Positions 37,109 to 56,459 are shown, numbered from the stretch's first letter. The stretch: DNA of 64,000 bases from Alphaproteobacteria bacterium (GCA_017938435.1 JAGBBO010000027.1:2264-66263), one strand, 5' to 3'. The notes: a model not told the origin generated them from the letters alone. Made by a program: numbers and translations.

Positions 37109-37111
37109 AAA

Positions 37112-41182: not shown

Positions 41183-41235
41183 AATGGATTACTGTAAGGG
41201 ATAATATATAATAAATTTTTATAAGGACTAAAAAA

Positions 41236-42627
41236 ATGTTATTTTCATCTATGACTTTTATATTTTTATTTTTACCAATCGTTTGTTCACTATACTTGTT
41301 GGTAAAGGATAAGTTTAAAAACCATATTTTATTGATTGCAAGTATTTTATTTTATGCTTGGGGTGAACCAAAATATTTATCAATAATGCTTTTAACCATA
41401 ATAATAAATTATTTTGGGGCTTTTTACCTTGATAAATTTCCAAAATATAAAAAGGCAATTTTAACCACAACTATCATTGCGGATTTAGCATTTCTTATTT
41501 ACTTCAAATACTTTAATTTCATAATGGAAAACCTTAACACCTTATTCACATCTGATTTTAATTTTATTGATGTAGTAATGCCTATTGGAATTTCATTTTA
41601 TACATTCCAAGCCATGTCATATTTGATTGATGTTTATCGCGGAGATACAAAAGTTCAAAAAGATATTTTAAAGCTCGCCCTTTACATTTGTTTATTTCCT
41701 CAACTTATTGCGGGACCTATTGTGCAATACAGCGATGTTGATAAGCAAATTGATAACCGCGAGGAAAATTTTGAAAAGGTTGTCTATGGTGTAAAAAGGT
41801 TTATCATTGGACTTGCAAAAAAGGTTTTAATTGCAAATACTTTGGGTGCAGTCGCAGATAAAATTTTTGACACATCTGTATTTGAAGTTCAAACCAGTAT
41901 TGCTTGGATTGGTGCTATCGCTTACAGTTTTCAACTATTTTATGATTTTAGTGGATATTCAGATATGGCCATAGGTCTTGGCTCTATATTTGGTTTCAAA
42001 TTTTTGGAAAATTTCAACTACCCATACATTTCAAAATCCATCACTGAATTTTGGAGAAGATGGCATATTTCTCTTTCATCATGGTTTAAAAATTACCTTT
42101 ATATTCCTCTTGGTGGAAATAGAAAAGGAAAAATTCGCACCTATATCAATTTGTTTATAGTCTTCCTTGCAACTGGAATTTGGCACGGGGCAAGTTGGAA
42201 TTTTATCGTATGGGGTTTGTGGCACGGTATGTTTAACATAATTGAAAAACTTACAGGTTTTAATAAAAAAGAGGGTAAAAAAATAGCCATAGTTCAACAT
42301 ATCTATACTCTATTTATAGTAGTAATTGGTTGGGTAATGTTCAGGGCAAAAAATCTTACAAATGCGATTGAATATATTGAAAATATGTTTGGACTTTTCA
42401 AAAACTATCCAGCTTTCAAAATATCATATTACATAGATAATATTGAAAAAATAATGTTTATTGCCGCAATCTTATGTGCAATGCCAATATTCAAACATTT
42501 TGCGGAAAAGCCAAAAAATAAATATATTCATATTTTGGTTAATATTTGGATTATGATTTTGTTCTTCCTATCGGTTACATCAATCGCAGCATCAACATAT
42601 AATCCATTTATATATTTCAGATTTTAA
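41236..42627 (+). CDS. MBOAT family membrane-bound O-acyltransferase (AlgI/DltB/PatA-like)
   Basis: 463 aa multi-TM. Conserved His region WHISLSSWFKNYLYIPLGGNRKG. Confidence 0.85.
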   Translation: MLFSSMTFIFLFLPIVCSLYLLVKDKFKNHILLIASILFYAWGEPKYLSIMLLTIIINYFGAFYLDKFPKYKKAILTTTIIADLAFLIYFKYFNFIMENLNTLFTSDFNFIDVVMPIGISFYTFQAMSYLIDVYRGDTKVQKDILKLALYICLFPQLIAGPIVQYSDVDKQIDNREENFEKVVYGVKRFIIGLAKKVLIANTLGAVADKIFDTSVFEVQTSIAWIGAIAYSFQLFYDFSGYSDMAIGLGSIFGFKFLENFNYPYISKSITEFWRRWHISLSSWFKNYLYIPLGGNRKGKIRTYINLFIVFLATGIWHGASWNFIVWGLWHGMFNIIEKLTGFNKKEGKKIAIVQHIYTLFIVVIGWVMFRAKNLTNAIEYIENMFGLFKNYPAFKISYYIDNIEKIMFIAAILCAMPIFKHFAEKPKNKYIHILVNIWIMILFFLSVTSIAASTYNPFIYFRF

Positions 42628-42693
42628 AGGAATAAAAAAGATATTACCAAGACAAACAAAGAGAACTTTAATCATTTTTTTATAAAAATCTAG

Positions 42694-43422
42694 TTATTTT
42701 AGATTTTTCGTCATATTGTGTAAATGAGCATTTGTCATTTCTTTTTTTTCACCATCAATATCATACATATAACCTGATACAGCTTTACCATCTTTAAAAT
42801 TTACTTCTTCTTTTAAATTTCCATTATTATAATAGGCTTTGGACAAACCTTCCAGCTTACCATCTTTATAATTTTCTTCTGCTTCTAAATTTCCGTTTTC
42901 ATAATAGGTTTTGGACAAACCTTCCTCCTTACCATCTTTATAATTTACTTCTACTTTTAAATTTCCATTATTATAATATCCTTTGCCTAAACCTTCCTCC
43001 TTATCATCTTTAAAATTTTCTTCTGCTTTTAAATTTCCGTTTTCATAATAGGCTTTGGACAAACCTTCCGGCTTACCATCTTTATAATTTCTTTCTGCTC
43101 TTAAATTACCATTATCATAATAGAATTTGCTTAAACCTTCTAGTTTATTATCTTTATAATTTACTTCTTCCTTCAAATTTCCATTATTATAATATACTTT
43201 GCCTAAACCTTCCAACTTACCATCTTTATAATTTACTTCTACCTTCAAATTTCCATTATCATAATAACGTTTTACAATTCCTGTAATTGGCTCTCCTTCC
43301 AAATCACAAAGCATAAGAATTGCATTTTGAGAACAATCTTTAGTTTCATTTACATTATATTCTTTTGCATTAGCTGTAAATGATGTAATTAAAGCAAATA
43401 GTGTAATTATAAGTTTCTTCAT
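42694..43422 (-). CDS. MORN/YwqK-type repeat lipoprotein (8 tandem 23-aa repeats)
   Basis: Signal peptide. Repeats of YY-NGNLK-E-NYKDGK-EGL. The underlying DNA is a 69-bp tandem repeat array. Confidence 0.8.
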   Translation of the reverse strand: MKKLIITLFALITSFTANAKEYNVNETKDCSQNAILMLCDLEGEPITGIVKRYYDNGNLKVEVNYKDGKLEGLGKVYYNNGNLKEEVNYKDNKLEGLSKFYYDNGNLRAERNYKDGKPEGLSKAYYENGNLKAEENFKDDKEEGLGKGYYNNGNLKVEVNYKDGKEEGLSKTYYENGNLEAEENYKDGKLEGLSKAYYNNGNLKEEVNFKDGKAVSGYMYDIDGEKKEMTNAHLHNMTKNLK

Positions 43423-43562
43423 TTTTATATCTCCTGTTTTTATTTATCTTCCTATATTCTAAATCCTCTTAAATATACTTTCAAGGAAAAATAAAACTCC
43501 CCATCAAATGATGAATAACAAATTCTCACAAAAAAACGAAATAATATATTATAAAAAATATA

Positions 43563-43599
43563 GTAAAATCAATGAGTTAAGTTGGTGCAGATGGCCGGA
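43563..43599. repeat. attL: 37-bp direct repeat copy of the tRNA-Leu 3' end plus flank
   Basis: agtaaaatcaatgagttaagttggtgcagatggccgga matches 54296..54332 with one mismatch. Confidence 0.85.
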
Positions 43600-43941
43600 T
43601 TTCCGACATACCCAAAATTTACCCTAAAAAGCTTAGTTATCTAACAACCTCACTTTTTTATTTTCATCTAATGCAATACATCTTGCATTACATTTATTAA
43701 TTATAAACTAAAACAATACAATCGTAAACGTTTTTTTAAATAATACACATTATATATATTATAAGGGGGAGTACCCTAGAAGGGGAACCCCGGGGATACC
43801 TAATGGGGAGAGGGAACCCCTGGTACCTAGTATCTCGGATGTGTGATGTGGACCTGGAGCCCTAACAAAAAAATACTCAATTTTAAAAAGGCCCTTATAC
43901 GCGCGGAAAGATTTTTTAAAAGTCAAAATTTCACTAGGATA

Positions 43942-45105
43942 TTATTTATATTGTTTCATTAACTTTTCATAGTTGCTTAATGAATTATCAACCGCTTCAA
44001 TCATTTCACAAACCTTTTGTTTATCAATATCAAACTCAGATGCAACGGTAATAAAATCATCATTGGTAATATCTTTACCCTTACCATTTACCATTGTTGT
44101 TTGCTCTCCATTTATTCCAAACGAAGGTGTTAAATCGTATGCAGGAGCTAGTTTCCAATTATTATTCCTATCAATCAAATATGAAAAATTCTTTGTATGG
44201 TCATCCTTATTACCTGCTTTAACATTAAATATCATAAGACGAACCATTTTTTCAACTTCCTTAATATCTTTTGTTAAGACAAAAGTAAGTTTTAAAAGGT
44301 TTGTATAATCCATACTTGAAACACGAAAATCAGCATTAAGTAAACCACATGCAGTATGAGTATGAACTTTTTGATTTCCTACTCGGTCAAATCTTTTTAC
44401 ACCAAAATATCCACTGGAAATTTGTGATGGAAATAAATAAGTTTCAGGCATTTCAATACCTGCATCCTTTGCAATAAGTGAATAAACATACTCTTGAACA
44501 CCAAGGTTTTTATCATCCTGAGTATTTGAAAATTTTATAAGCCAATGTGAAAAATTATCAGGAAAATCCTTTGATGGAGAAAGTATTGTTTTTTTATCAT
44601 TAGATACCAACGCAACAATTTTTGGTCTTGCACCACCAGATGAACCATTTAATTTCAAAAGTTCATCAAGACCATTATTTGATTTATCAAGTAATATTTT
44701 CTTTGCATCTTGTGCCAAAAAATCCAAATTTACATCAGGCATATCATCAATATCTTCAGATGGTTCATATTCCAATGCTCCCATAGGATTATTACCCACC
44801 ATTGAAAGCCTATGAAGTGGCCTTATTGAATTAAATGACAAACCTTGTTTTTGTAATTTCCTATCAAGAAGTAAACACCCCCAACCATCCGGAAGACTAT
44901 CATTAAATACACCAAATAAACCACCAAAAATACTATTATCACCTTCAAATACTCTTTCCTGTAAAGGTAGTTTAAAAGGTGAAATTTCAATACCTTCCTT
45001 TATAAATTCAGGTGCATATTGAAAATAAATTTTTGCACCTATATCTTCCAATACACCTACAAATTTTCTTGAACCATAAGTATTAAGGTATACATTTAAT
45101 TTCAT
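43942..45105 (-). CDS. hipA: type II toxin-antitoxin HipA-family serine/threonine kinase toxin
   Basis: 387 aa. HipA N-terminal and C-terminal kinase-like regions. Overlaps the upstream HTH gene by 4 nt. Confidence 0.8.
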   Translation of the reverse strand: MKLNVYLNTYGSRKFVGVLEDIGAKIYFQYAPEFIKEGIEISPFKLPLQERVFEGDNSIFGGLFGVFNDSLPDGWGCLLLDRKLQKQGLSFNSIRPLHRLSMVGNNPMGALEYEPSEDIDDMPDVNLDFLAQDAKKILLDKSNNGLDELLKLNGSSGGARPKIVALVSNDKKTILSPSKDFPDNFSHWLIKFSNTQDDKNLGVQEYVYSLIAKDAGIEMPETYLFPSQISSGYFGVKRFDRVGNQKVHTHTACGLLNADFRVSSMDYTNLLKLTFVLTKDIKEVEKMVRLMIFNVKAGNKDDHTKNFSYLIDRNNNWKLAPAYDLTPSFGINGEQTTMVNGKGKDITNDDFITVASEFDIDKQKVCEMIEAVDNSLSNYEKLMKQYK

Positions 45106-45422
45106 TTTAATTTACCTCTTTTACGTTGTTTTACTTTAACAGGATTGATTAACGATACAGGTTTATCATCAGGTTTAAGTAAATTATCAAACTCATCCAA
45201 TACATTTAATATCAAAGCAATTTTTAATAATGCTTGTAATGATATTTCTCCACTATTTTCAAAACGTTTTAATGTTCCAAGTGAAACACCCGAACGTTCG
45301 GATAAACCTTCTTGTGTAAGGTTTTTATCCAACCTTTTTTGTTTAAACCGAAATGCAATTTCCTTTTGCACCTCTTGATTTGTTTTTAATAAATATGCCA
45401 TAATAGTCAATATATTATCCAT
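45102..45422 (-). CDS. hipB: HipB-like XRE-family HTH antitoxin/repressor
   Basis: HTH LTQEGLSERSGVSLGTLKRFENSG. Alternative start at 45401 (MAYLL...). Confidence 0.7.
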   Translation of the reverse strand: MDNILTIMAYLLKTNQEVQKEIAFRFKQKRLDKNLTQEGLSERSGVSLGTLKRFENSGEISLQALLKIALILNVLDEFDNLLKPDDKPVSLINPVKVKQRKRGKLK

Positions 45423-45466
45423 TAAATTGATTATTTATATATAATATACAATATATTATCCATTAA
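45408..45466. promoter_or_regulatory. two perfect 18-bp direct repeats (caatatattatccattaa) at the hipB start, a candidate HipB operator/promoter
   Basis: Copies at 45408..45425 and 45449..45466. They contain the TATCC core typical of HipB operators. Confidence 0.45.
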
Positions 45467-45501
45467 GTAAAGTAAAAAATAAAATATTCATTATATAATA
45501 T

Positions 45502-45536
45502 TAACTTCGTTTCAACTCGAACGAAGTTATTTTTTA
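45502..45536 (+). terminator. 10-bp perfect stem-loop plus T-run (terminator-like hairpin) in the hipB/methyltransferase divergent region
   Basis: taacttcgtt-tcaactcg-aacgaagtta-TTTTTT. Confidence 0.45.
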
Positions 45537-45763
45537 TACTAATGAAAAAATATTAAAAAAAAATTTTACATAATTTCCCCGTAAAATCAACAGGTTAGCA
45601 TTTTATATATAAAACAACTAATTCGGAGCCGTATGTTTTTAAAATTTTTACCCATTCTTTATATATAGAGGGTGAATTTTACCCTACTACAACTTTTGTT
45701 GTTTTACATCGTGAATAAGCTCTCCCCCTAATTTTTAAACAAAATTTTAAGGAAACATTTAAA

Positions 45764-46696
45764 ATGATTTTTAAAGATGATTTTGATAGAAATATTGAAG
45801 CAATACGTCTCGAAAGAGAGACTTTAGATAAACAACTCAAAGAAGAAGAGTCTAATAGCTCTCGAAATTCTTATGTAAAATTTACAAATGAATTAATCGA
45901 AAAATCTATTTTACTCTTAAGACTTGAGTTTGAAAAAATCAAACCTCTTTTGAATGAGACACCAAGTGCCCAGGGAGCAAGAACCGATATTGACTCTAAG
46001 GTTATGACAAAACAATTTGTCGAACAAATACTCAACCTAAAACACAAACAGGCTTGGGAAATCCAACAACTAACCAAAGAGTCTGTCGACCTTGCAATCG
46101 ATTACGCAAAAGAAAATAATATCTTAGCCACTCGTTCCTTAGCACTCAGATTACTTCAAAAAAATAAAAAAGAAGAGTCAATTCATATCAATCCATCCGA
46201 AATTTATGATGATGAAGAAATTATTGAAGAAAAAAGTCAAATCAAAAATAATACCTTATATAATGTAATATACATTGATTTGACTAATTCATACAATAAA
46301 AATGATTTGACTCATCTCCCTATAGCAGATGATGCAATTTGTTTTGTCTGGACCAAACCAAATGACTTATCAAAAGCATTATCTACTATAAATGAACTTG
46401 GTTTTGTATATCAAAATAGCCTCGTCTGGGATAAAGATATTAAAAATACAAATACTTATATCCAAAACCACCACGAGCTACTTTTAATAGGTTTAAAAAA
46501 TAAATATAAAATTAATCAAAATAATAAATTTATATTTGATTCAATTTATTTTGAACACCAAACAAACAAAACCACTAAACCAGACTATTATTATTCTTCA
46601 ATCGAAAAAATATGTCCAAACCAAAAATATTTAGAAGTCTTTTCTGACAGAAAATATAGCGAAAAATGGACTGTTTTCGGAGGTAAAAATGAATAA
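45764..46696 (+). CDS. MT-A70-like (Dam-like N6-adenine methyltransferase fold) protein with degenerate DPPW motif (YIDLTN), N-terminal coiled-coil
   Basis: Motifs VIYIDLTNSY / AICFVWT / LVWDKD / HELLLIGLKN / C-terminal KWTVFGGKNE align with MT-A70 family blocks. The catalytic PPW is lost. Confidence 0.55.
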   Translation: MIFKDDFDRNIEAIRLERETLDKQLKEEESNSSRNSYVKFTNELIEKSILLLRLEFEKIKPLLNETPSAQGARTDIDSKVMTKQFVEQILNLKHKQAWEIQQLTKESVDLAIDYAKENNILATRSLALRLLQKNKKEESIHINPSEIYDDEEIIEEKSQIKNNTLYNVIYIDLTNSYNKNDLTHLPIADDAICFVWTKPNDLSKALSTINELGFVYQNSLVWDKDIKNTNTYIQNHHELLLIGLKNKYKINQNNKFIFDSIYFEHQTNKTTKPDYYYSSIEKICPNQKYLEVFSDRKYSEKWTVFGGKNE

Positions 46697-47813
46697 TAAT
46701 ACAAATATAGTAAAATACCTATCCCTCTTTTCTTGTGGGGGGATAGGTACTTATCTATTAAAAGATATTGGTTTTAAATGTGCTGTTTCAAATGAATTGG
46801 ATATAGTCCGAGCTACATATCACCAAGATTTATATAAAGATGATAAAATGATTATTGGTGATATAAGAGAAAAGAAAAAGGAAATAATCCAATCCTATAT
46901 TGAAACTGGTTGTTCGGGAATATTAGCATCCCCTATATGTCAACCTTTTTCATTAGCTGGTGGTCAACATCTTAACGACCCGGAAACATTACTATTTTTG
47001 GATGTTTTAGATATTACCCAAGCTACAAATCCTGATTTTTTATTGATTGAAAATGTTCCTTACTTCATATCAGATAAACAATCTCCAATTATTACAAATA
47101 AATTGGGTGGTAAAACTATCAAACAATACATCACAGATTTTTTAACAAATCTTGGTTATGAAGTAAACATTAACAAAATAAAAGCATGTGATTATGGAAC
47201 CGCACAAAAAAGGGAAAGAGGAATAATCCTTGCATGTAAAAAGGAATTTGGTAAATGGAATTTTCCAAAGAAAGATGATAAAATTTTAACATTAAAAGAT
47301 GTTATAGGTAATGGAAGATTTAAATCACTGGAACCTGGTGAACGTGATAAAAATAATCCACTACACTATGCAGAATATGTTAATCCAGACCAAGCGGAAT
47401 GTTTAAGACATACACCAACCGGTCAATCAGCTTTATTAAATATTGGTAAATGGAAAATAAAAAATATCAACGGAACTGAATCAAAAGCTCAACATAAAAG
47501 TGCTTTTGGTAGAGCTAAATGGGATGAACCATGCCCAACTATTGTTATGTCTAGTGATAGTATAAGTGGTGATTGGTCTGTTCATCCTGGTTATAAAAAA
47601 CCTGATGGTACTTATTCCGACCCAAGACCTTTTTCCATTGCAGAACTTTTCGCAATTACCGGTCTCCCAGACACTTATTATAATGATATACCTGACTGGG
47701 CAAAAGGTAATCACAAACTTTTACGACAATTAGTTGGTGAAAGTTTTTGTCCTCTGGTTGTAAAAAGACTTATGCAAGAGTTGAAAAAAGTTTTACCAGC
47801 TTTTAAATCTTAA
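46689..47813 (+). CDS. DNA (cytosine-5)-methyltransferase
   Basis: Motif I LFSCGGIG, motif IV SPICQPFSLAGG, motif VI IENVP, C-terminal GESFCPLV. Starts 8 nt before the upstream gene's stop. Confidence 0.9.
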   Translation: MNNNTNIVKYLSLFSCGGIGTYLLKDIGFKCAVSNELDIVRATYHQDLYKDDKMIIGDIREKKKEIIQSYIETGCSGILASPICQPFSLAGGQHLNDPETLLFLDVLDITQATNPDFLLIENVPYFISDKQSPIITNKLGGKTIKQYITDFLTNLGYEVNINKIKACDYGTAQKRERGIILACKKEFGKWNFPKKDDKILTLKDVIGNGRFKSLEPGERDKNNPLHYAEYVNPDQAECLRHTPTGQSALLNIGKWKIKNINGTESKAQHKSAFGRAKWDEPCPTIVMSSDSISGDWSVHPGYKKPDGTYSDPRPFSIAELFAITGLPDTYYNDIPDWAKGNHKLLRQLVGESFCPLVVKRLMQELKKVLPAFKS

Positions 47814-47820
47814 ACGAAAG

Positions 47821-47853
47821 ACACCTCATATTAAATTATGGGGTGTTTTTTTA
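47821..47853 (+). terminator. rho-independent terminator after the C5-methyltransferase gene
   Basis: 9-bp stem acacctcat/atggggtgt (one G.U pair), 8-nt loop, T7. Confidence 0.75.
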
Positions 47854-48061
47854 TACCTAAAAAATTCCCGAAAGTCTGAATCAAAATTGAAGTCGGTTCT
47901 ACAGATTGTGCACATACATAGGATTTTGGGATATTTAAGGCTGTTAATCGCTTAAAAGTTAACAAAATCCGTTTGATTATAACAATAGGATTTACAACAA
48001 AATCCTTTGTCACTTTTATACCCTAATTTTTTAAAAATAATTATTTAAGGATTGCATAAAA

Positions 48062-48532
48062 ATGACAAACTTAAAAACTGAATTAATAAAATGGATTGAT
48101 AACACTTACAAGCCGAAATATCTTATGACAATACAACTTCCGGAAAATTTGAAGAGTAATAATCTTGAACATTCCATAAATCATTTAAAAAGTATTATGA
48201 GAGATTTTGAAAAATTTTTACTTAAAAGACATTGGAATAAAAAACATTTACCATTTATAGCATTTGCAGAAAATGGAATATCAAAGGATTGGCATTTTCA
48301 CTTGTTACTAAATGGTGATAACTTTTCATATATTGATTTAAAAATTGCAATATATAGGATAATTTTAAAACAAAAAATACCAACATATTGTATACAACTT
48401 GATAAAATTGAAGATGGTATAGCCAAAGTTGAATCCTACACAATTAAGGAAATAAAAATAACGGATTTTAATAAATTTGATAGTGATAGGATGATACTTT
48501 CACAAGATTTATTTAATATTGAAAAGAAATAA
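48062..48532 (+). CDS. small HUH-motif protein (possible Rep/relaxase-like or Y1-transposase-like endonuclease)
   Basis: KDWHFHLLLNG (His-hydrophobic-His-3 hydrophobic) followed about 60 aa later by ESYTIKEIK (YxxK). Preceded by a 7-mer repeat array. Assignment is speculative. Confidence 0.3.
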   Translation: MTNLKTELIKWIDNTYKPKYLMTIQLPENLKSNNLEHSINHLKSIMRDFEKFLLKRHWNKKHLPFIAFAENGISKDWHFHLLLNGDNFSYIDLKIAIYRIILKQKIPTYCIQLDKIEDGIAKVESYTIKEIKITDFNKFDSDRMILSQDLFNIEKK

Positions 48533-48638
48533 TCAATCCCTTTCTACCCCATATCAACGAAACAACCTTAGATTATAAATTATAAGCCAGAACTGTAACT
48601 ACTCAATTCTGGCTTATTTATGTGAATTTATGGAATGT

Positions 48639-48953
48639 TTAGTATTCTTCTGCTAACATAACAGTCATTACTCTAATGGTCTTTGTTATATCTGCAGGAT
48701 TATCTGAGTAGTATTGTAAATTCCGGTCATAATAATCAATTTTCCACATTATCTTTTCACCATCATACTCAAAACTTCCGTAATCGTGTTCATTGTATGG
48801 GTCATTTTTGTGGTTGAAATCATTGAACATCTTCACACTATCCAAGATTTCATTTATTGCTTTTTGCCCCTTACTGAAAATGCCTCTGGTCAACATCACT
48901 TTTCCACCTAAAAGGCTTTTACGGAAGTTATCATTTAATGTTATAATATCCAT
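48639..48953 (-). CDS. hypothetical protein, possibly DUF3768-like (mobile-element associated)
   Basis: C-terminus ...TIRVMTVMLAEEY resembles the DUF3768 family. From memory only. Confidence 0.35.
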   Translation of the reverse strand: MDIITLNDNFRKSLLGGKVMLTRGIFSKGQKAINEILDSVKMFNDFNHKNDPYNEHDYGSFEYDGEKIMWKIDYYDRNLQYYSDNPADITKTIRVMTVMLAEEY

Positions 48954-48955
48954 TT

Positions 48956-49084
48956 TTATATCCTTACAATTTCAGTTACTACAACATGACCACGTTGTTT
49001 TTCTGCTCTACATGCATTCATTGCATCACGAAGTTTATAGTAAATCGTAGGCATTAAAATTCCGTTTACTTTTATTTGAAACAT
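48956..49084 (-). CDS. small ORF (42 aa), translationally coupled within a three-gene operon
   Basis: Its ATG lies 1 nt after the upstream stop and its stop lies 2 nt before the downstream start. Below the ORF-track size cutoff. Found by reading the sequence. Confidence 0.25.
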   Translation of the reverse strand: MFQIKVNGILMPTIYYKLRDAMNACRAEKQRGHVVVTEIVRI

Positions 49085-49085
49085 C

Positions 49086-49337
49086 TTATCTAACCTCCAC
49101 ACTCAAGAATTTATTAAATCTACGCAAAGCCTGTTTAACTGATGTATGGCTTCTATTACCATAAGCATATTTATCTCCAGTTTCATATTCAGGAAGTATA
49201 TTTGCAATATTTTGAATAAGCATATCCAAGGAGATGTTTTCCTTTTTGCAAAGTCTTTCAATTCTGCCTTCATAATCTTTAGCAGTGTTGATTTTATAGT
49301 TGTTTTCGATTAACCAATTTTTAAATTTTTTAAGCAT
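49086..49337 (-). CDS. hypothetical small protein (83 aa)
   Basis: First gene of the tightly coupled minus-strand operon. Divergent from the RM gene. Confidence 0.35.
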   Translation of the reverse strand: MLKKFKNWLIENNYKINTAKDYEGRIERLCKKENISLDMLIQNIANILPEYETGDKYAYGNRSHTSVKQALRRFNKFLSVEVR

Positions 49338-49679
49338 TTTTAAACCCTTTCATTTTTGTTTTTACATATATAATTATGTCGTGTTGTTTTGGGTTTGTAA
49401 GCGAAAAAATGCATAAAAACGCAAGAAAAATAGCCATTTTTGAGTAAAAATTAAGAATTTTATAGGTTTGTATTGCTGGGAACACAAACCTTATTACATC
49501 GATGTAACAAACTTTACATTAATTATTTGTAGTGTAAAACTACGGACAAATTATTTGTTACTCATTTTAGGTGACAATTAGTTAACGTGTTTTATCCCGA
49601 AACATATAACAAAAATTTTGATTTTATTCATAAACTATGATATAATTTTAAAAGATAAAATTATTATTGGAGTTATCAA

Positions 49680-51596
49680 ATGGCAAAAAAGGAAGCAAAA
49701 ACCGATTTGTGGGTATATAAATTATTAACTCAAGCAGATATTGAACTTGAACCTCAAGGAAGTTCCATTAAAGAAATTAATGAAGCATTAAAAACAGCCT
49801 CCAAAAAAGGAACAGGCAATGTCGGTTATCCTGAATATGTAGGTATTGTAAAAGATTTTATTTTAGTTATTGAAGATAAAGCTGATATTAATAAACATAT
49901 CAACAAAGAAAATGATATTATACTTCAAGACCCAAATTCATGTGTCGATTATGCAGTCAATGGAGCATTATTTTATGCAAAACATTTAATAAAAAATACA
50001 TCCTTTAAAAAAGTAATTGCATTTGGGATTTCAGGCAATCAAAAAATACATAAAATAAGCCCTATTTTCGTTGATACAACAGAATATTATAGGGAATTAC
50101 CAGATGTTGAATCCTTTATAAGTTTTAATGATAAAAACATTATGGAATATTACACCCATGAAATATTAAAGGAAGAGACAAACATTGAAAAGGAAACCGA
50201 GGAAATCCTAAAAGATGCAAGCCAACTTCATGAAGATTTAAGAAATTATGGAAATTTAACCGATACCGAAAAACCACTAGTAGTTTCAGGTATTTTACTT
50301 GCTTTGGATGAAGCTGAACAAGGAAATTTTTCCATTGATAATTTAACTGGGGATAGTATAAAAACTGATGGTCAAAAAATATACAATGCTATACAAGATA
50401 ATCTTAAGCGAGTTAGAGTTGCTCCTGATGTTAAAAGGGATAAAATATTATCACAATTTTCCGTAATAAAAGATGCTACGAAGTTAAATGAAAAGGATGA
50501 TACATTAGGTAAAACTCCTTTAAAATATTATGCAGAGTTTTTATATGAAAAAATTTATAAATCAATAAAATATAATAGTTCTGCAGAGGATTTTATCGGT
50601 CGTTTTTATGGCGAATTTATGAGTTATAGTGGTAATAATGGTCAAAGTTTAGGTATTGTTTTAACACCAAAACATATAACTCAATTATTCTGTGATTTAC
50701 TTGATTTACAATCTGACGATAAAATCCTTGACCCTTGTTGTGGAACTGGTGGTTTCCTTATTGCGGCAATGCATAACATGTTTGCAAAAGCAAAAAATCC
50801 TAATGAAAGGGAAAACATAAGACAAAATCAACTTTTTGGTTTTGAATTACAACCTTATATGTTTGCTATTGCAACAACAAATATGATTTTAAGGGGTGAT
50901 GGTAAGAGTAATTTACAATGTGAAGATTTCTTGAAACAACCAAGTAATAAACTTCAACTAAATGGTTGTAATGTTGGTATGATGAATCCTCCATACAGTC
51001 AAGGTTCAAAGAAAAATCCAAACCTTTATGAAATTGCATTTGTCGAACATTTGCTTGATTCACTTGTAAAAGGTGGAAAATGTGCTGTTATTGTCCCACA
51101 ATCATCTATGACCGGGAAATCAAAGGAAGAAGCAGCTATAAAACAAAATATATTAAAACATCATACATTGGAAGGTGTAATTACACTAAACAAAGATACA
51201 TTTTATGGTATCGGAACCATGCCTTGTATTGCTATATTTACAGCAGGGAAACCTCACGACAAAGACCATATTTGTAAATTTATCAATTTTGAAAATGATG
51301 GTTATAAAGTTGCTCCACATATTGGATTACTTGAAACCGAAAGTGCAAAAGATAAAAAACAACATTTACTTGATGTCTGGTTTGATAAAGTTAATGAAGT
51401 TCCAACAAAATTCTGTGTAAAAACGACAGTTGAAGATACTGACGAATGGTTGCACAGTTTTTATTATTTTAATGACGAAATCCCAACTGATGAAGATTTT
51501 GAAAAAACTGTTGGTGACTATTTATCATTTGAATTTTCAATGATTATGCAAGGCCGTAAATACCTTTTTGAAGAGGAGGATATTGAAAATGCTTAA
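49680..51596 (+). CDS. BcgI-A-like fused restriction endonuclease / N6-adenine methyltransferase subunit (Type IIB/IIG-like)
   Basis: N-terminal PEY-x13-IEDK (PD-(D/E)xK-like) region. Motif I LDPCCGTGGFL. Motif IV MMNPPYS. 638 aa (BcgIA is 637 aa). No separate HsdR nearby. Confidence 0.65.
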   Translation: MAKKEAKTDLWVYKLLTQADIELEPQGSSIKEINEALKTASKKGTGNVGYPEYVGIVKDFILVIEDKADINKHINKENDIILQDPNSCVDYAVNGALFYAKHLIKNTSFKKVIAFGISGNQKIHKISPIFVDTTEYYRELPDVESFISFNDKNIMEYYTHEILKEETNIEKETEEILKDASQLHEDLRNYGNLTDTEKPLVVSGILLALDEAEQGNFSIDNLTGDSIKTDGQKIYNAIQDNLKRVRVAPDVKRDKILSQFSVIKDATKLNEKDDTLGKTPLKYYAEFLYEKIYKSIKYNSSAEDFIGRFYGEFMSYSGNNGQSLGIVLTPKHITQLFCDLLDLQSDDKILDPCCGTGGFLIAAMHNMFAKAKNPNERENIRQNQLFGFELQPYMFAIATTNMILRGDGKSNLQCEDFLKQPSNKLQLNGCNVGMMNPPYSQGSKKNPNLYEIAFVEHLLDSLVKGGKCAVIVPQSSMTGKSKEEAAIKQNILKHHTLEGVITLNKDTFYGIGTMPCIAIFTAGKPHDKDHICKFINFENDGYKVAPHIGLLETESAKDKKQHLLDVWFDKVNEVPTKFCVKTTVEDTDEWLHSFYYFNDEIPTDEDFEKTVGDYLSFEFSMIMQGRKYLFEEEDIENA

Positions 51597-52116
51597 GTTA
51601 ACTGATAGGAAATGGAAAGAGTTTAAAGTTGGTGATTTATTTACTATTGAAAAATGTAAATGTTCAAATGCTTCATTATTTAATTCAGGTAATATTCCTT
51701 ATGTAGGAGCAACTAATAAAAATAATGGAACAATGAATTTTATAACAACTGATAAAAAGTATATAACAAAAGGAAATTGCTTAGTTTTTATTTGTGATGG
51801 TCAGGGGTCTGTTGGATATTCAATATATAAAAAGGAAAATTTTGTTGGTTCAACAACACTTAAAATAGGAAGGAATCCACTACTAAATGAACATAATGCA
51901 TTATTTTTCACAACATCACTTGATAAAAATAAAAATATATATAGTTATGGTTATAAAAGAAATGAAAACAGATTAAAAAATGAACATATTCTTCTTCCTG
52001 TAAATAACACAAATCTTCCCGATTATAAGTTTATGGAAGACTACATTAAGGAAGTTATGATAAGAAAACGTAAGGAATATATAAGCTATGCTGAATCCAA
52101 ACTAATGGGGGGGTAA
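51568..52116 (+). CDS. HsdS-like specificity subunit, N-terminal half (TRD1), truncated at a poly-G tract
   Basis: The HsdS target-recognition-domain-like sequence overlaps the upstream gene's end. Terminates at TAA immediately after G7. Confidence 0.7.
   Translation: MKRRILKMLKLTDRKWKEFKVGDLFTIEKCKCSNASLFNSGNIPYVGATNKNNGTMNFITTDKKYITKGNCLVFICDGQGSVGYSIYKKENFVGSTTLKIGRNPLLNEHNALFFTTSLDKNKNIYSYGYKRNENRLKNEHILLPVNNTNLPDYKFMEDYIKEVMIRKRKEYISYAESKLMGG
52107..52113 (+). repeat. homopolymeric G7 tract separating the two halves of the specificity gene
   Basis: Direct read: aatGGGGGGGtaa. A +1 G puts 51568..52649 in one frame with no intervening stop. Confidence 0.9.
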
Positions 52117-52232
52117 AATATCAGCAAATTCAAACACTTAGAGATAAAAAGTGGAAAGAATTTAGTATTATAAATTTATTTGATAGTATACAAAGAGGAA
52201 AACGTCTTATAAAGGATAATCAAACAAAAGGT

Positions 52233-52649
52233 ATGATACCTTATGTTTCATCAACTTCACTTAACAATGGTATTGATAATTTTATTTCCTATGAAAAATC
52301 ATCAATGAGGAAATTTAACAATTGTTTAAGCCTTGCAAACAGTGGTAGTGTTGGTTCAACTTTTTATGAACCATTTTCTTTTGTGGCAAGTGACCATATA
52401 ACTCATTTAAAAAATAAATCCTTTAATCAAAATACATATTTATTTTTAGCTTCCCTATGTAATCGTTTATCAAAAAAATATAATTTCAACAGAGAAATAA
52501 ATGATACAAGAATTTCAAGGGAAAAAATAATGCTTCCTGTAAATTCCGATGGAGAACCTGATTATAAATTCATGGAAGATTATATTTCAAATATAACATA
52601 TAATAAATATAATGATTATATAACCTATGCAAAATCACAAATTTGCTAA
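52233..52649 (+). CDS. HsdS-like specificity subunit, C-terminal half (TRD2); the frame is open upstream to about 52117
   Basis: Second TRD. It ends with the same DYKFMEDYI...YITYAKSQI conserved repeat as half 1. Confidence 0.65.
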   Translation: MIPYVSSTSLNNGIDNFISYEKSSMRKFNNCLSLANSGSVGSTFYEPFSFVASDHITHLKNKSFNQNTYLFLASLCNRLSKKYNFNREINDTRISREKIMLPVNSDGEPDYKFMEDYISNITYNKYNDYITYAKSQIC

Positions 52650-52675
52650 ACAACCTCATTCCAACAGGAATAAAG

Positions 52676-54187
52676 TTATTTCTTTGCCATAATCTTCTTC
52701 CACTTATCAAATTCAGGTTGAAGGAAGTCATAACTAAATTTTTCATACTCTTCTTTGATTTGTTTTAAACTAAAATTTGAGTAAGATTGTTCCATTGTAT
52801 CTTTACCTTCCCATCCAATGATTGCATTTATAATTGTTGGAATCAAACCTGCAGATTGCAAAGCCAAACTTGCATTTTTACGGAAAGAATGGAAATCATA
52901 ACCTTTGTCTTTTACACCTATTTCCTTAAAAAACTTAAATAAATATCTATCCAAATATTTATTATTATATTCACCACCACTAGTTAAAATTTTTGAAAGT
53001 ATAAAATCATCATTTTTCTTACTTTCCTTAATTTTTTTGAATTCAAAATATTCAACAAAACCAAGGTCTAGCAACTGTTTATGTATTGGAACAATTCGTT
53101 CCGATGCATCATTTTTCAAATGCTTTATAGCATGATTTTCTTTAAATTCAAAACAATACATACCATCTTTTACAATTATATCACCGTATTGCAAAGTTGT
53201 TGCTGCATTTGCACGGGCACCAGTAAATAAAGCAACTAAACAAATCCAAAATAATTCAGGATTATCCTTAAAAAATTCATGTTTTGGATTAAATATTTCC
53301 TTAAGTTGAACTTCACTATATGGCAAATGAGGTTGTCTTTCACTCTTTTTTGTTTTTTCAATTTTTGGCATAGATACAAGAATATTTTTCTTGTAAAAAT
53401 CAGGTTCAAGTTCACATGCAAAACAGACAAATTCCTTTATATATCTAAGTTTCTGACGCTTATTGTCGTTTTTTACATTAACATCATTAGCTATATCTTG
53501 TGAAATTTTATCAATAATATCTGTTTTATGAAAAGTTGAATAATCATCATCTGGAGATAAACCTAATTTTGTAAAAACTCCATTGAAAAAGTTAGTCTTA
53601 CGCTTAGTCTCAGCTTCACAATTATTTGCATTTTGAAGCATTTTTTCCAAAATGTACTTAAGTGTATGTTTAGGAGGTGTAATATTAGCATTACTTCCTG
53701 CAACAAATGGAATTCCACCTTGTTTTTCAATTAAATCTGCTAATTTCTTGAATTTTTCAAAATTTTCAACAACTTGCTTTTCTTGCCTATACTTTTCAAT
53801 ATTTGCATTTATATCAGAAAATACCTTCATAAACTCAATCAATGTTTCAGGCTTATTATTTTTTGATAAAACTAACTCATCAGGAATATTAAGCATAAAT
53901 CCATATCCCCCAAATACTGAAGATTGGTTTCGACGCCAATAAACATTAATTTGTGAATATAATTGACTGAGTTTATTAAACTTGTCATTAAAATCATTAA
54001 TTTCAACCATCTTAGCCAAAGCCTCATAATAATCATTTGTATATAAGGAATAGCACAAATAACGTCTTTTTCCTTCCACTCTTGGTAATTCCATTCTACA
54101 ATAAAAAAACCCATTCCTCAACCATAAATGTGGCTTAATTTTTGTTTTTGCCATACACTTTGCCATACAGTTGCTAAACATTTGCAA
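52676..54187 (-). CDS. tyrosine site-specific recombinase (phage-type integrase)
   Basis: C-terminal catalytic region with the R...HSFRKN...GW...Y pattern. 503 aa. Adjacent to the tRNA attachment site. Confidence 0.8.
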   Translation of the reverse strand: MQMFSNCMAKCMAKTKIKPHLWLRNGFFYCRMELPRVEGKRRYLCYSLYTNDYYEALAKMVEINDFNDKFNKLSQLYSQINVYWRRNQSSVFGGYGFMLNIPDELVLSKNNKPETLIEFMKVFSDINANIEKYRQEKQVVENFEKFKKLADLIEKQGGIPFVAGSNANITPPKHTLKYILEKMLQNANNCEAETKRKTNFFNGVFTKLGLSPDDDYSTFHKTDIIDKISQDIANDVNVKNDNKRQKLRYIKEFVCFACELEPDFYKKNILVSMPKIEKTKKSERQPHLPYSEVQLKEIFNPKHEFFKDNPELFWICLVALFTGARANAATTLQYGDIIVKDGMYCFEFKENHAIKHLKNDASERIVPIHKQLLDLGFVEYFEFKKIKESKKNDDFILSKILTSGGEYNNKYLDRYLFKFFKEIGVKDKGYDFHSFRKNASLALQSAGLIPTIINAIIGWEGKDTMEQSYSNFSLKQIKEEYEKFSYDFLQPEFDKWKKIMAKK

Positions 54188-54315
54188 AATCCCCTAACCT
54201 TTTTACAGCATCAAAAATGCTAAGTTATTGTTTTTACAAGTATTTTGCAAAAGATAAAAATTTAAACTTTATAAAAAGTTAAAATAAATAAGTGAGTAAA
54301 TTCAATGAGTTAAGT

Positions 54316-54406
54316 TGGTGCAGATGGCCGGAATCGAACCGGCACGGACGTTTAAATGTCCGAGGGATTTTAAGTCCCTTGCGTCTACCTGTTCCGCCAC
54401 ATCTGC
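54316..54406 (-). tRNA. tRNA-Leu (anticodon UAA), class II with long variable arm, encoded CCA
   Basis: Reverse complement folds as acceptor GCAGATG/CATCTGC, anticodon stem AGGGA/TCCCT with loop CTTAAAA (anticodon TAA), an 18-nt variable arm and T-loop GGTTCGATTCC. Confidence 0.85.
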
Positions 54407-54467
54407 ATAGGTAGAATTTCAAAACAAAATGTATTATAATACTTTCAAAGAATTTTTCAAGTAATTT

Positions 54468-55058
54468 TTAAACACATTTTACATTAGTAATATTTTTTGT
54501 TTCCGTATCATATTCAAACGAAAAACACGAACAATTTCCAATTCTTATTTGTTCGCCCAAAAATTTAAGTAATGCTATCTTTATAAATCCACCATGAGAA
54601 ACAAGTAAAATATTATCTTCATTATCAGGAATACTACTCATAAATTCCATAAACCTAGAAAAAACATCATCAAAACTTTCAGCATTAGGAAGTTTTCCTG
54701 AACCCACATCGTTTCCACCACTAAAAATAGCATCCAAAAGTTTCTTTGCATCTTGTGGTAATTCAGAATAAATTTGCCCTTCTGCATCACCAAAACAAAT
54801 TTCCCTTAACAACGGATGAACCTTTACACCAACACCAATATTTCTAGAAATAATGTCTGCTGTCATATTCGCCCGTTTAAGAGGACTTGAATAAATACAG
54901 TTCACCGGAATTTTCGATAAATGTTCAGATAATTTTTCTGCTTGTAAAATTCCCATTTCATTTAATGGAATATCTGTTGATCCCTGAATCTTACCAACCT
55001 TATTCCAATCTGTTTCACCATGGCGAACAAAATAAAAAGTCTTTAGCATAAAAAACAC
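54468..55058 (-). CDS. histidine phosphatase family protein (phosphoglycerate mutase-like)
   Basis: FYFVRHGETDWN (RHG motif). Confidence 0.75.
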   Translation of the reverse strand: MFFMLKTFYFVRHGETDWNKVGKIQGSTDIPLNEMGILQAEKLSEHLSKIPVNCIYSSPLKRANMTADIISRNIGVGVKVHPLLREICFGDAEGQIYSELPQDAKKLLDAIFSGGNDVGSGKLPNAESFDDVFSRFMEFMSSIPDNEDNILLVSHGGFIKIALLKFLGEQIRIGNCSCFSFEYDTETKNITNVKCV

Positions 55059-55059
55059 C

Positions 55060-56442
55060 CTATAACTTAAATTGACTTAAATCTGGCATATTTGCAAACT
55101 CACCACTATCTTGCATTTGCTTTGCCATAGCCATAAGTCCCTTTATACCACCCATACTATTCATCTGATCCATCATTGATTTTGTTTTTTGATATTGGCG
55201 AATAAGTTTTTCCACATCAGAAACAGAAACACCTGCACCCTTTGCAATACGCTTTTTTCGCCCCATCAAAATAATATCAGGATTGCGTCTTTCCTTTGAT
55301 GTCATAGAAAGAATTATTGCCTCCTGTCTTTTCATCATACCATCATTCATTCCCATAGATTGAAGTTTTTCAGCCAATCCACCAATACCAGGAAGAAATT
55401 TCATAATCCCAGCAATAGATCCCATTTTTTTCACTTGTTTAAACTGAGCAAGCATATCTTCAAAAGTAAATTGCCCAGCCATCATTCGTTCAGCAAGACG
55501 ACTTGCCTCCGCCTCATCAATTTTTTCTTGTGCCTTTTCAACCAACGAAACAATATCCCCCATACCAAGGATACGACTTGCAATTCTGTCTGGGAAAAAT
55601 AGTTCTAAATCATCAATTTTTTCACCACTTCCCAAAAACTTAACCGGCACACCGATACTTGCTTTCATAGAAAGTGCAGAACCACCCCTTGCATCACCAT
55701 CAACCCTTGTCATAACAATTCCAGTTAATGAAAGCACATCATTAAATGCCCTGGCGATATTTATACCGTCCTGACCTACCAAAGCATCAACACAAAGTAA
55801 AATTTCTGATGGCAAAATTTCTTTCTTTATTTTTGAAATTTCATCCATCATTTCATCATCAATACTTACACGACCAGCAGTATCAACCAAAACGACATCA
55901 TAATCATCAAAAACTTTCTTTGCGCGTTTTATAATATCAAAAGGAGTTTCATTTTGAATAATTGGTAAGGTATCAACCCCTATCCTTTCACCCCAAATGG
56001 AAAGTTGTTCCCTTGCCTGTGGTCGATAAACATCGGTCGAAAGCATAAGAACTTTTTTACCATATTTTTCAGTAATGAATTTCCCAAGTTTTGCCGTAGT
56101 TGTTGTCTTACCACTTCCATTAAGTCCAGCCATCAAAATGACATAAGGTTTTTTATCAAAAACAAAACCATCATTTTTTTCACCAAGCATTGAAACAAGT
56201 TCATCATTAACAATTTTCACAACTTGATTCGCAGGACTTACATCTTCAATAATTTTTTGCCCAACAGCTTTTTCTTCAATTCGTTTCAACAAATCTTTCA
56301 CGACCGAAAGGGAAACATCCGCTTCTAAAAGAGCAACCTTTATTTCCCTTAACGCATCCTTTACATCACCTTCTGAAAGTTTATCCTTTCCACGAATTGC
56401 ATCAAAAGTTTTAAGCAATTTTTTTGATAAAGATTCAAACAT
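55060..56442 (-). CDS. ffh: signal recognition particle protein Ffh
   Basis: N, G and M domains. GLNGSGKTTTTAKLG Walker A. Met-rich C-terminus. Confidence 0.95.
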   Translation of the reverse strand: MFESLSKKLLKTFDAIRGKDKLSEGDVKDALREIKVALLEADVSLSVVKDLLKRIEEKAVGQKIIEDVSPANQVVKIVNDELVSMLGEKNDGFVFDKKPYVILMAGLNGSGKTTTTAKLGKFITEKYGKKVLMLSTDVYRPQAREQLSIWGERIGVDTLPIIQNETPFDIIKRAKKVFDDYDVVLVDTAGRVSIDDEMMDEISKIKKEILPSEILLCVDALVGQDGINIARAFNDVLSLTGIVMTRVDGDARGGSALSMKASIGVPVKFLGSGEKIDDLELFFPDRIASRILGMGDIVSLVEKAQEKIDEAEASRLAERMMAGQFTFEDMLAQFKQVKKMGSIAGIMKFLPGIGGLAEKLQSMGMNDGMMKRQEAIILSMTSKERRNPDIILMGRKKRIAKGAGVSVSDVEKLIRQYQKTKSMMDQMNSMGGIKGLMAMAKQMQDSGEFANMPDLSQFKL

Positions 56443-56459
56443 AAACTACTCCAAAATTA

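What the first reader, a model, noticed from the sequence alone, without database searches (positions are those of the whole stretch)
43563..54332. Integrative island inserted in tRNA-Leu(UAA), with a 37-bp att duplication
The sequence agtaaa(a/t)tcaatgagttaagttggtgcagatggccgga occurs at 43563..43599 and again at 54296..54332. The second copy spans the last 17 nt of the tRNA-Leu gene (minus strand, 54316..54406) plus 20 nt of its 3' flank. A tyrosine integrase gene (52676..54187) sits next to the intact tRNA. The repeats enclose hipBA, two methyltransferase genes, a BcgI-like RM system, a HUH-motif ORF and several small ORFs, with no phage structural genes. The layout fits a defence island or an integrative mobilizable element rather than a prophage.
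Basis: seen in the sequence. Interest (0 to 1): 0.7.

Follow-up and report, generated by a model that had tools for sequence, protein, structure and literature searches.

The report
Mobile defence island in tRNA-Leu
A 10.7-kb mobile genomic island has inserted into the end of a leucine tRNA gene of an uncultured gut or rumen alphaproteobacterium, carrying restriction, methylation and toxin-antitoxin genes: a well-supported but ordinary kind of element, from a family that apparently has not been described.

Summary
The direct repeat is 38 nt (43562-43599 and 54295-54332), has one mismatch, and none is expected by chance. The proximal copy covers the last 17 nt of tRNA-Leu(UAA) plus 21 nt of 3' flank.

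- A related MAG (L004) has the empty site: the tRNA is followed directly by the homologue of the window's left flank.
- Another MAG (L005) keeps only a scar. It has about 200 nt of near-identical element arm and a frameshifted integrase 5' end.
- The 501-aa tyrosine integrase has every catalytic residue.
- Its relatives sit beside tRNA-Leu(UAA), tRNA-Gly(UCC) or tRNA-Gly(CCC). Two of them have equivalent repeats of 37 and 23 nt.

Six further related islands (five complete enough to compare) share parts of a backbone:
- the integrase;
- an 83-aa stand-alone recombinase core-binding-domain protein;
- a 42-aa ORF;
- DUF3768;
- a small HUH rolling-circle Rep;
- in three islands, an MT-A70/Dcm methylase pair.

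The cargo differs between islands. Here it is hipBA and a BcgI-like type IIB RM system whose specificity gene is split at a G7 tract.

There are no virion or conjugation genes. I found no same-species empty site and no circular junction. The best label is an IME-like integrative defence island, a new member of a known kind.

The parts
43562..43599 (.). Distal direct repeat (attR): 21 nt of former tRNA 3' flank plus a 17-nt copy of the tRNA-Leu 3' end. It carries the attB-type base at the single mismatch (T in tRNA orientation).
43662..43761 (.). Element arm next to attR. It is conserved (77% nt) in island L022, which integrates at a different tRNA.
43762..43877 (.). GC-rich ~116-nt segment unique to this island, with two GGGAACCCCKGG copies (43783, 43812). 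Unexplained.
43942..45105 (-). hipA-family toxin kinase (387 aa).
   Evidence: HipA_C 2e-46, Couple_hipA 4e-15
45102..45422 (-). hipB-like HTH antitoxin (106 aa); overlaps hipA by 4 nt.
45502..45529 (.). Perfect 11-bp-stem palindrome followed by a T-run (bidirectional terminator-like). It marks the start of the backbone block shared with L022.
45764..46696 (+). MT-A70-family DNA methyltransferase (310 aa). Part of the backbone in this island, L022/L023 and L024.
46689..47813 (+). Dcm-type C5 cytosine methyltransferase (374 aa); overlaps the MT-A70 gene. Part of the same backbone.
48062..48532 (+). Small HUH rolling-circle Rep-like protein (156 aa). The HUH motif (H78, H80) and the Y126-x-x-K129 motif are invariant in the family.
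48639..48953 (-). DUF3768 protein (104 aa). Backbone gene; the same family is found on 490 PLSDB plasmid records, mostly alphaproteobacterial.
48956..49084 (-). 42-aa ORF packed tightly between the 83-aa gene and the DUF3768 gene. An ORF of this size sits in the same position in L013 and L022.
49086..49337 (-). 83-aa stand-alone four-helix protein with the fold of a tyrosine-recombinase core-binding (SAM-like) domain. An 83/84-aa homologue is present in four related islands (L009, L010, L013, L022), and an 83-residue called gene cut by the contig end occupies the same position in L024. L018 shows a nucleotide match inside a 92-aa ORF.
49680..51596 (+). BcgI-like type IIB/IIG restriction-methylase A subunit (638 aa).
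   Evidence: PDLC03602 1.4e-172 over 2-632/637; N6_Mtase
51589..52116 (+). First half of the specificity (S) gene (175 aa from the ATG). It ends just after the G7 tract.
52107..52113 (+). G7 homopolymer at the frame junction of the S gene. One extra G gives an uninterrupted S protein with two target-recognition domains (360 aa from the upstream TTG at 51568, about 353 aa from the ATG at 51589).
52095..52649 (+). Second half of the S gene. The frame is open from 52095; the first ATG is at 52233.
52676..54181 (-). Tyrosine integrase (501 aa). It faces inward and begins 114 nt from the proximal repeat. R323, K353/K356, H431-x-x-R434, W457 and Y467 are invariant across its family.
54295..54332 (.). 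Proximal direct repeat (attL). It overlaps the tRNA 3' end and carries the element-type base (A in tRNA orientation) at the mismatch.
54316..54406 (-). Intact tRNA-Leu(UAA), the integration target.

Best explanation
Window 43562-54332 is a 10,733-bp site-specific integrative element (10,771 bp counting both repeats). It sits in the 3' end of tRNA-Leu(UAA) of an uncultured alphaproteobacterium.

Integration (supported here). The element's 501-aa tyrosine integrase recombined an attP with the chromosomal attB. That attP carries a copy of the last 17 nt of the tRNA plus about 21 nt of downstream sequence. The event rebuilt the tRNA and left the 38-nt duplication. The single mismatch places the crossover inside the 31 exact bases.

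Architecture (supported here). The element belongs to a modular family. The backbone is the integrase, an 83-aa stand-alone core-binding-domain protein, a 42-aa ORF, DUF3768, a small HUH Rep, and in several members an MT-A70/Dcm methylase pair. The cargo is exchangeable. Here it is hipBA and a BcgI-like type IIB restriction-modification system whose S gene is split at a G7 tract.

Life cycle (inferred).
- The integrase excises a circle, possibly with the 83-aa protein acting on the core sites.
- The HUH protein nicks an origin, either for rolling-circle copying or as a relaxase-like initiator for mobilisation by a helper. This would make the element IME-like.
- The methylases protect the element's DNA on entry into a new host.
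- hipBA and the RM system stabilise the island and may defend the host.
For: - The repeat is real and not a chance match.
- tRNA and integrase lie side by side, and every integrase catalytic residue is invariant.
- Empty site: L004 matches the window's right flank at 84% nt over 9.8 kb, then reads tRNA-core and the homologue of window 43471-43561 with no island protein.
- Scar: L005 has about 200 nt of element arm with two mismatches, then 56 frameshifted integrase codons. The host flanks there are only 81-84% identical.
- The mismatch base agrees with this picture. The proximal copy matches the L005 and L009 element arms; the distal copy matches the L004 attB.
- Relatives of the integrase lie directly after tRNA-Leu(taa) in L009, tRNA-Gly(tcc) in L010 and L022, and tRNA-Gly(ccc) in L013.
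- L010 has a 37-nt repeat bounding 6.8 kb. L022 has a 23-nt repeat bounding 11.9 kb.
- Backbone versus cargo: L022 shares 85.5% nt over 45503-49435 but has a 47%-identical integrase at a different tRNA. L024 shares 82.7% nt over 43878-48626.
- HUH protein: Pfam REP_ORF2-G2P scores above its cutoff, the HUH and YxxK motifs are invariant, and the fold matches AAV Rep, parvovirus NS1 and microvirus/ORF2-G2P Reps.
- No virion, T4SS or relaxase genes. Only 1 of 2.9 million IMG/VR contigs carries a relative of the integrase.
Against: - No same-species empty site. All long contigs that carry the neighbouring ffh or MORN genes also carry the island.
- No attP junction or second attB turned up in the JGI metagenome scan of the 31-mer.
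- No origin or nick site, oriT, excisionase or arm-type repeats could be identified.
- The roles given to the 83-aa protein, DUF3768 and the methylases are inferences only.
- The RM specificity gene is out of frame, so that module may be inactive.
Confidence: 0.85

Rival explanations
1. Phage or GTA satellite (PICI-like or tycheposon-like). The island excises and replicates through its HUH Rep when a helper phage infects, and it spreads inside hijacked capsids rather than by conjugation.
For: [quoted passage not shown] One relative lies in an IMG/VR contig in tandem behind a second integrase.
Against: The island has no terS, capsid, packaging-redirection, repressor or primase genes. PHROGs matches only the integrase. 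Only 1 of 2.9 million viral contigs has a relative. DUF3768 is typical of conjugative and mobilizable plasmids.
Confidence: 0.12
2. A once-mobile island that is now fixed. The element integrated as described but no longer excises in this lineage, and it persists as a chromosomal defence and addiction locus.
For: Every contig of this species that was recovered carries it. No attP or attB reads were found. The RM S gene is frameshifted. L005 shows that such islands decay in place.
Against: The integrase ORF is full length with all catalytic residues. The repeats differ at only 1 of 38 positions. The backbone genes are intact and 83-86% identical to those of other islands. All contigs come from one study's samples, so population sampling is narrow.
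Confidence: 0.2
3. Remnant of a prophage that has lost its structural genes.
For: An integrase next to a tRNA with flanking repeats is also the layout of a prophage.
Against: None of the six further related islands carries virion genes, and the same non-phage backbone recurs in them. Apart from one 116-nt GC-rich segment of unknown origin, the 10.7 kb is accounted for by identified genes, conserved small ORFs and short spacers.
Confidence: 0.02

Closest known systems
Integrative and mobilizable elements (IMEs), e.g. NBU1 and MTnPi4 in tRNA-Leu, or streptococcal IMEs with RCR-type relaxases (PMC5704250, PMC5357655)
   Same: A single tyrosine integrase targets the 3' end of a tRNA gene without disrupting it. 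Direct repeats flank the element. There is no mating-pore machinery. TA and type II RM modules ride as maintenance or cargo genes. The only candidate DNA-processing enzyme is a small initiator of the rolling-circle Rep type.
   Different: There is no recognisable relaxase family, oriT or coupling protein. Mobilisation is untested. The HUH protein belongs to the REP_ORF2-G2P family, not to Rep_trans or Rep_2. The host is an uncultured alphaproteobacterium, and the integrase is only about 23-31% identical to any phage or plasmid integrase, and only over its catalytic half.
Tycheposons of Prochlorococcus and other marine bacteria (bioRxiv 10.1101/2020.12.28.424599)
   Same: Both are tRNA-specific, with an inward-facing tyrosine recombinase at one end, a small replication module, exchangeable cargo, integrase clades that each target a different tRNA, tandem arrays and decayed remnants next to the tRNA (here).
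   Different: The replication module here is a small HUH Rep, not a primase or helicase. The backbone genes (core-binding-domain protein, DUF3768, methylase pair) are not those reported for tycheposons. Whether the integrase belongs to the tycheposon lineage was not tested.
Phage-inducible chromosomal islands (PICIs) and other satellites
   Same: Size, a site-specific integrase, a replication initiator and defence-type accessory genes.
   Different: No repressor/anti-repressor pair, terS, capsid-remodelling genes or cos/pac functions were found.
BcgI type IIB restriction-modification system (cargo module)
   Same: The A subunit matches the 637-position REase-MTase profile end to end. A separate S gene with two target-recognition domains matches the 341-position type II specificity profile.
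   Different: The S gene is split by a frameshift at a G7 tract. Recognition sequence and activity are unknown.

Membership tests
tRNA-integrated site-specific genomic island (tyrosine-integrase type) | Direct repeats at both ends, one overlapping the 3' end of an intact tRNA gene | tested here: met
   38-nt repeat with 1 mismatch; 17 nt lie in tRNA-Leu(taa)
tRNA-integrated site-specific genomic island (tyrosine-integrase type) | Tyrosine recombinase with the R-K-H-x-x-R-H/W-Y catalytic set, adjacent to the att site | tested here: met
   R323, K353/356, H431, R434, W457 and Y467 are invariant in 10 family members; Pfam and PHROGs both call it an integrase
tRNA-integrated site-specific genomic island (tyrosine-integrase type) | An unoccupied target site exists in related genomes | tested here: met
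   L004 has tRNA, a single core and the homologue of the left flank. This is a cross-species comparison; no same-species empty site was found
tRNA-integrated site-specific genomic island (tyrosine-integrase type) | Excision to a circular form with an attP junction | not testable with these tools
   Contig collections only. The 31-mer scan of the JGI metagenomes returned a single attL-type contig
Integrative and mobilizable element (IME) | Has its own integration/excision module but no mating-pore (T4SS) genes | tested here: met
Integrative and mobilizable element (IME) | Has its own oriT and/or a relaxase (canonical or RCR-initiator type) | tested here: inconclusive
   An HUH Rep-like protein is present and conserved. 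No nick site or oriT was identified
Integrative and mobilizable element (IME) | Transfer mobilised by a conjugative helper | not testable with these tools
   Requires mating experiments
Prophage | Capsid, tail, terminase and lysis genes | tested here: not met
   No such Pfam or PHROGs hits in any island ORF
Integrative conjugative element (ICE) | T4SS, coupling protein and relaxase | tested here: not met
PICI / phage satellite | Packaging or capsid-redirection genes (terS, cpm, capsid) and a helper-responsive repressor | tested here: not met
   None found
Tycheposon | Inward-facing site-specific integrase at one end, next to a tRNA, with a small replication module and cargo | tested here: met
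   Layout; definition
Tycheposon | Integrase belongs to the tycheposon-specific tyrosine-recombinase lineage and the element shares its hallmark genes | not tested
HUH rolling-circle Rep / relaxase superfamily | HUH metal-binding motif plus a catalytic Tyr motif on an HUH-nuclease fold | tested here: met
BcgI-like type IIB RM | A fused endonuclease-methylase A subunit plus a separate two-TRD specificity subunit | tested here: inconclusive
   The A subunit matches full length. The S gene has two TRDs but is frameshifted at G7
HipBA type II toxin-antitoxin | HipA kinase domains with an upstream overlapping HTH antitoxin gene | tested here: met

The most novel reading that the evidence does not exclude
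This island founds an undescribed family of integrative elements in uncultured gut and rumen Alphaproteobacteria. In this reading one backbone is re-targeted to different tRNA genes by swapping integrase/att modules. That backbone is a small HUH Rep, a stand-alone recombinase core-binding-domain protein, DUF3768 and an orphan MT-A70/Dcm pair. The 83-aa core-binding-domain protein would act as a new type of directionality or regulatory factor on the core att sites, and the cargo RM system would switch on and off through its poly-G tract.
Probability: 0.25. Interest if true: 0.55.

Novelty: new member of a known kind. Interest (0 to 1): 0.4.

Why it matters
The island gives a cleanly bounded, experimentally testable mobile element for a group of uncultured, low-GC gut and rumen Alphaproteobacteria with no known genetics. 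Its attB, attP and integrase could seed integration tools. It also shows how restriction, methylation and toxin-antitoxin modules move between these species. Three poorly characterised proteins gain a concrete context in which to be tested: DUF3768 (no paper in the searched library mentions it), an 83-aa stand-alone core-binding-domain protein, and a minimal 156-aa HUH Rep. As a class of element it is not surprising.

Tried and rejected
- Same-species empty site. Exact-protein look-ups of the flanking MORN and ffh genes returned only island-bearing or truncated contigs. The His_Phos look-up found nothing, because my ORF start differs from the called gene.
- attP or attB in metagenomes. The 31-mer scan of the JGI contigs gave one contig. 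It is 99.1% identical to the window and ends exactly at the repeat edge, so it is uninformative.
- Logan contig ends. The contig end at the repeat (L003) is explained by k=31 equalling the exact repeat length, so it is not evidence of polymorphism. L020 ends inside the tRNA gene itself, which I did not explain and which is equally uninformative.
- Arm-type integrase sites. No shared or internal repeats beyond chance in the two arms.
- Origin or nick site for the HUH protein. The conserved intergenic blocks look like terminators and promoters, and no candidate nick site could be named.
- GC-rich segment 43762-43877 as an ncRNA. No Rfam hit at E<1, folding no better than shuffles on either strand, and absent from related islands and viral contigs.
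- Nucleotide similarity of the island to PLSDB plasmids: none. Rep protein against plasmids: none.
- Integrase against the phage and plasmid collections: only weak matches to the catalytic domain. Integrase and DUF3768 against PDB sequences: nothing.
- The promoter scan was no richer than shuffles.
- The afdb50 fold library was unavailable.
- The 51-aa (49330-49485) and 55-aa (43759-43926) ORFs were dropped as spurious. They are not called in public annotations and have no homologues.


Full report
**1. Observation**

The sequence AGTAAAATCAATGAGTTAAGTTGGTGCAGATGGCCGGA lies at 43562-43599. It recurs with one substitution (A->T at the seventh base) at 54295-54332. None of 100 dinucleotide-preserving shuffles gave even one match at up to 3 mismatches.

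ARAGORN and Rfam both call tRNA-Leu(taa) at 54316-54406 on the minus strand. The proximal copy thus covers the last 17 nt of the tRNA, including the encoded CCA, plus 21 nt of 3' flank. The island's GC content (28.9%) does not stand out from the flanks (30.8%).

**2. Gene content**

Reading from the distal repeat towards the tRNA:
- hipA (43942-45105, minus) and hipB (45102-45422, minus).
- An MT-A70 methylase (45764-46696) and a Dcm C5 methylase (46689-47813).
- A 156-aa REP_ORF2-G2P/HUH protein (48062-48532).
- A tightly packed minus-strand operon: an 83-aa ORF (49086-49337), a 42-aa ORF (48956-49084) and DUF3768 (48639-48953).
- A 638-aa protein (49680-51596) that matches the PADLOC type IIG/IIB REase-MTase profile end to end (E 1.4e-172, positions 2-632 of 637).
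- Two half specificity ORFs (51589-52116 and 52233-52649).
- A tyrosine integrase (52676-54181, minus; 501 aa from the ATG).

Nothing resembles a virion, lysis, T4SS, coupling or canonical relaxase protein. The flanks are housekeeping genes: a MORN-repeat protein, MBOAT and AlgX on one side, and a histidine phosphatase, ffh and pgm on the other.

**3. Is it an insertion?**

A search of species-representative genomes with the flanking phosphatase gave two informative relatives.

L004 (MAG RUI239) is collinear with the window's right flank at 84% nt over 9.8 kb, up to and including the tRNA and the core. It then continues directly into the homologue of window 43471-43561, the left flank, at 89% identity. 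None of the island proteins is encoded in the 11.3 kb held as L004. This is an empty attB. The contig name indicates a k=141 assembly, so a 38-nt repeat could not have collapsed it.

L005 (RUG13061, 'uncultured proteobacterium') has the tRNA followed by about 200 nt that differ from the window's integrase-proximal arm at two positions. The first 56 integrase codons follow, carrying a frameshift, and then come unrelated housekeeping genes. The surrounding host DNA is only 81-84% identical. This is the scar of the same or a very similar element in another species.

At the single repeat mismatch, the proximal copy carries the base seen in the L005 and L009 element arms. The distal copy carries the base of the L004 attB. 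That pattern is what recombination would leave if the crossover lay inside the 31 exact bases on the tRNA side of the mismatch.

The window is 100% identical to an ENA metagenome scaffold. Databases label the integrase as from an 'Alphaproteobacteria bacterium' MAG.

**4. The integrase family**

The integrase has at least 287 relatives of about 500 aa, at 45-66% identity, almost all from metagenomes. In an alignment of ten, R323, K353/K356, H431-x-x-R434, W457 and Y467 are invariant.

Against the phage and plasmid collections only the catalytic half matches, at 23-31% identity. The PDB sequence search finds nothing. Only 1 of 2.9 million IMG/VR contigs encodes a relative.

Genomic contexts were as follows.
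- L009 (65% identical integrase) lies directly after tRNA-Leu(taa) next to ffh and pgm. This is the same site in another species, with different cargo.
- L010 (59%) lies after tRNA-Gly(tcc). A 37-nt repeat (16 nt of tRNA plus 21 nt of flank) bounds 6.8 kb.
- L013 and L014 (46%) lie after tRNA-Gly(ccc).
- L022 and L023 (47%) lie after tRNA-Gly(tcc). A 23-nt repeat bounds 11.9 kb.

The family as a whole therefore targets tRNA 3' ends, and different clades use different tRNAs.

**5. Backbone and cargo**

Comparing the islands shows which parts recur.
- An 83/84-aa protein is present in L009, L010, L013 and L022 at 55-76% identity where compared, and the L018 DNA matches its gene. In L024 an 83-residue called gene, cut by the contig end, sits in the same position.
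- DUF3768 is present in L009, L013 and L022.
- A small HUH protein of 155-219 aa, with the HUH and Y-x-x-K motifs, is present in six islands (the window, L009, L010, L013, L022 and L024). In L018 the 219-aa counterpart is supported only by a sub-threshold Pfam REP_ORF2-G2P match (25.7 bits against a cutoff of 27.8).
- The MT-A70/Dcm pair is present in the window, L022/L023 and L024.

L022 shares 85.5% nt identity with the window over 45503-49435, yet it has a 47%-identical integrase and a different tRNA target. The integrase/att module is evidently exchangeable. L024 shares 82.7% over 43878-48626, including hipBA.

The variable cargo includes:
- the BcgI-like RM system (window);
- a Bsp6I-like RM system and HigB (L022);
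- McrBC and a fused Dcm (L013);
- Dam, an N4/N6 methylase and IceA (L018);
- an M78/HTH pair and a resolvase (L009).

**6. Backbone proteins**

The HUH protein scores just above the Pfam cutoff (29.7 against 27.8 bits). H78, H80, Y126 and K129 are invariant in 18 sequences. The AlphaFold model (pLDDT 79.8, pTM 0.78) gives these matches:
- Among viral models, the named hits are almost all replication initiators: ORF2/G2P-domain proteins, microvirus Rep, gene A protein, parvovirus NS1 and CRESS Rep.

No paper in the searched library mentions DUF3768 and the sequence search found no related solved structure. It is encoded on 490 PLSDB plasmids, mostly alphaproteobacterial. About half are typed as conjugative, and in the examples I looked at it sits near T4CP, MobA or resolvase genes.

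**7. Mechanism**

Shown computationally: site-specific integration at the tRNA-Leu 3' end by a tyrosine recombinase; occupied, empty and decayed states of the site across species; and a modular backbone-plus-cargo architecture.

Inferred:
- The element excises to a 10,733-bp circle.
- The HUH protein starts rolling-circle replication or relaxase-like processing. This is the strategy reported for many IMEs, which use RCR-type initiators as relaxases (PMC5704250).
- The orphan methylases protect the element on entry into a new host.
- hipBA and the RM system act as stabilising and defence modules.
- The 83-aa core-binding-domain protein modulates recombination or transcription at core-type sites.

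I put about 0.85 on the integrative-island core and about 0.4 on the HUH-driven IME-like step. A satellite lifestyle gets about 0.12. Independently of lifestyle, I give about 0.2 to the island now being immobile in this lineage.

**8. Comparison with known elements and novelty**

The element works like an IME or a tycheposon-type tRNA island. It fails the membership tests for prophage, ICE and PICI. I could find no description of this backbone combination or of this integrase clade, but the kind of element is well known. I rate it a new member of a known kind, with interest 0.4.

**9. Limits**

- All evidence is comparative.
- No same-species empty site or circular junction was found.
- No ori, oriT or excisionase was identified.
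- The GC-rich 116-nt segment at 43762-43877 remains unexplained.

Noticed in passing
window 52107-52113 (within 51568-52649): The BcgI-like specificity gene is split exactly at a G7 homopolymer. Adding one G gives an uninterrupted S protein with two target-recognition domains (360 aa from the upstream TTG). Only three G runs of 6 or more exist in the whole 64-kb window. This could be a phase-variable switch, a pseudogene or a homopolymer assembly error.
   Followed up: partly
window 36986-36993 (ORF 36263-37108): A G8 tract lies in frame inside a family-2 glycosyltransferase gene of the polysaccharide cluster. This is a second candidate phase-variable gene.
   Followed up: no
window 43762-43877: A GC-rich ~116-nt segment with two GGGAACCCCKGG copies 29 nt apart lies between the conserved element arm and hipA. 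It is absent from the related islands L022 and L024. It has no Rfam hit and no folding signal.
   Followed up: partly
window 49086-49337 (minus): An 83-aa stand-alone protein has the fold of a tyrosine-recombinase core-binding domain. It or a close counterpart recurs in the related islands examined. It belongs to a family of about 350 cluster representatives, mostly stand-alone, with no Pfam model.
   Followed up: yes
window 31255-43561 versus L005 11054-14792: The polysaccharide, MBOAT, AlgX and MORN region next to the island is absent from relative L005. There, 3.7 kb of other genes (a HemK-like methylase, thioredoxin reductase, a glycosyltransferase) follow the integrase scar. The whole tRNA-distal neighbourhood is variable.
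   Followed up: partly
window 42694-43422 (minus): The MORN_2 repeat protein gene is built from seven 72-nt (24-aa) tandem units. A MORN-repeat protein is also carried as cargo inside the related island L009 (14411-15529).
   Followed up: no
L022 7086-18956 versus window 45503-49435: The same backbone (85.5% nt identity) is joined to a 47%-identical integrase and inserted at tRNA-Gly(tcc) instead of tRNA-Leu. This points to swapping of the integrase/att module.
   Followed up: yes
L018 8648-11509: In the only IMG/VR relative, the 502-aa integrase lies directly behind a second, 371-aa integrase and a short tRNA-like fragment. This suggests tandem integration of two elements.
   Followed up: partly
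L015 (AUXO016971131.1) 2121-11827: A JGI metagenome contig 99.1% identical to window 54295-64000 stops exactly at the outer edge of the proximal repeat. This could reflect junction heterogeneity or simply an assembly break.
   Followed up: no
window 45400-45466: Two 26-nt direct repeats (92% identical, 41 nt apart) overlap the hipB start codon and its upstream region. They may be an operator or a duplication of the gene start.
   Followed up: no
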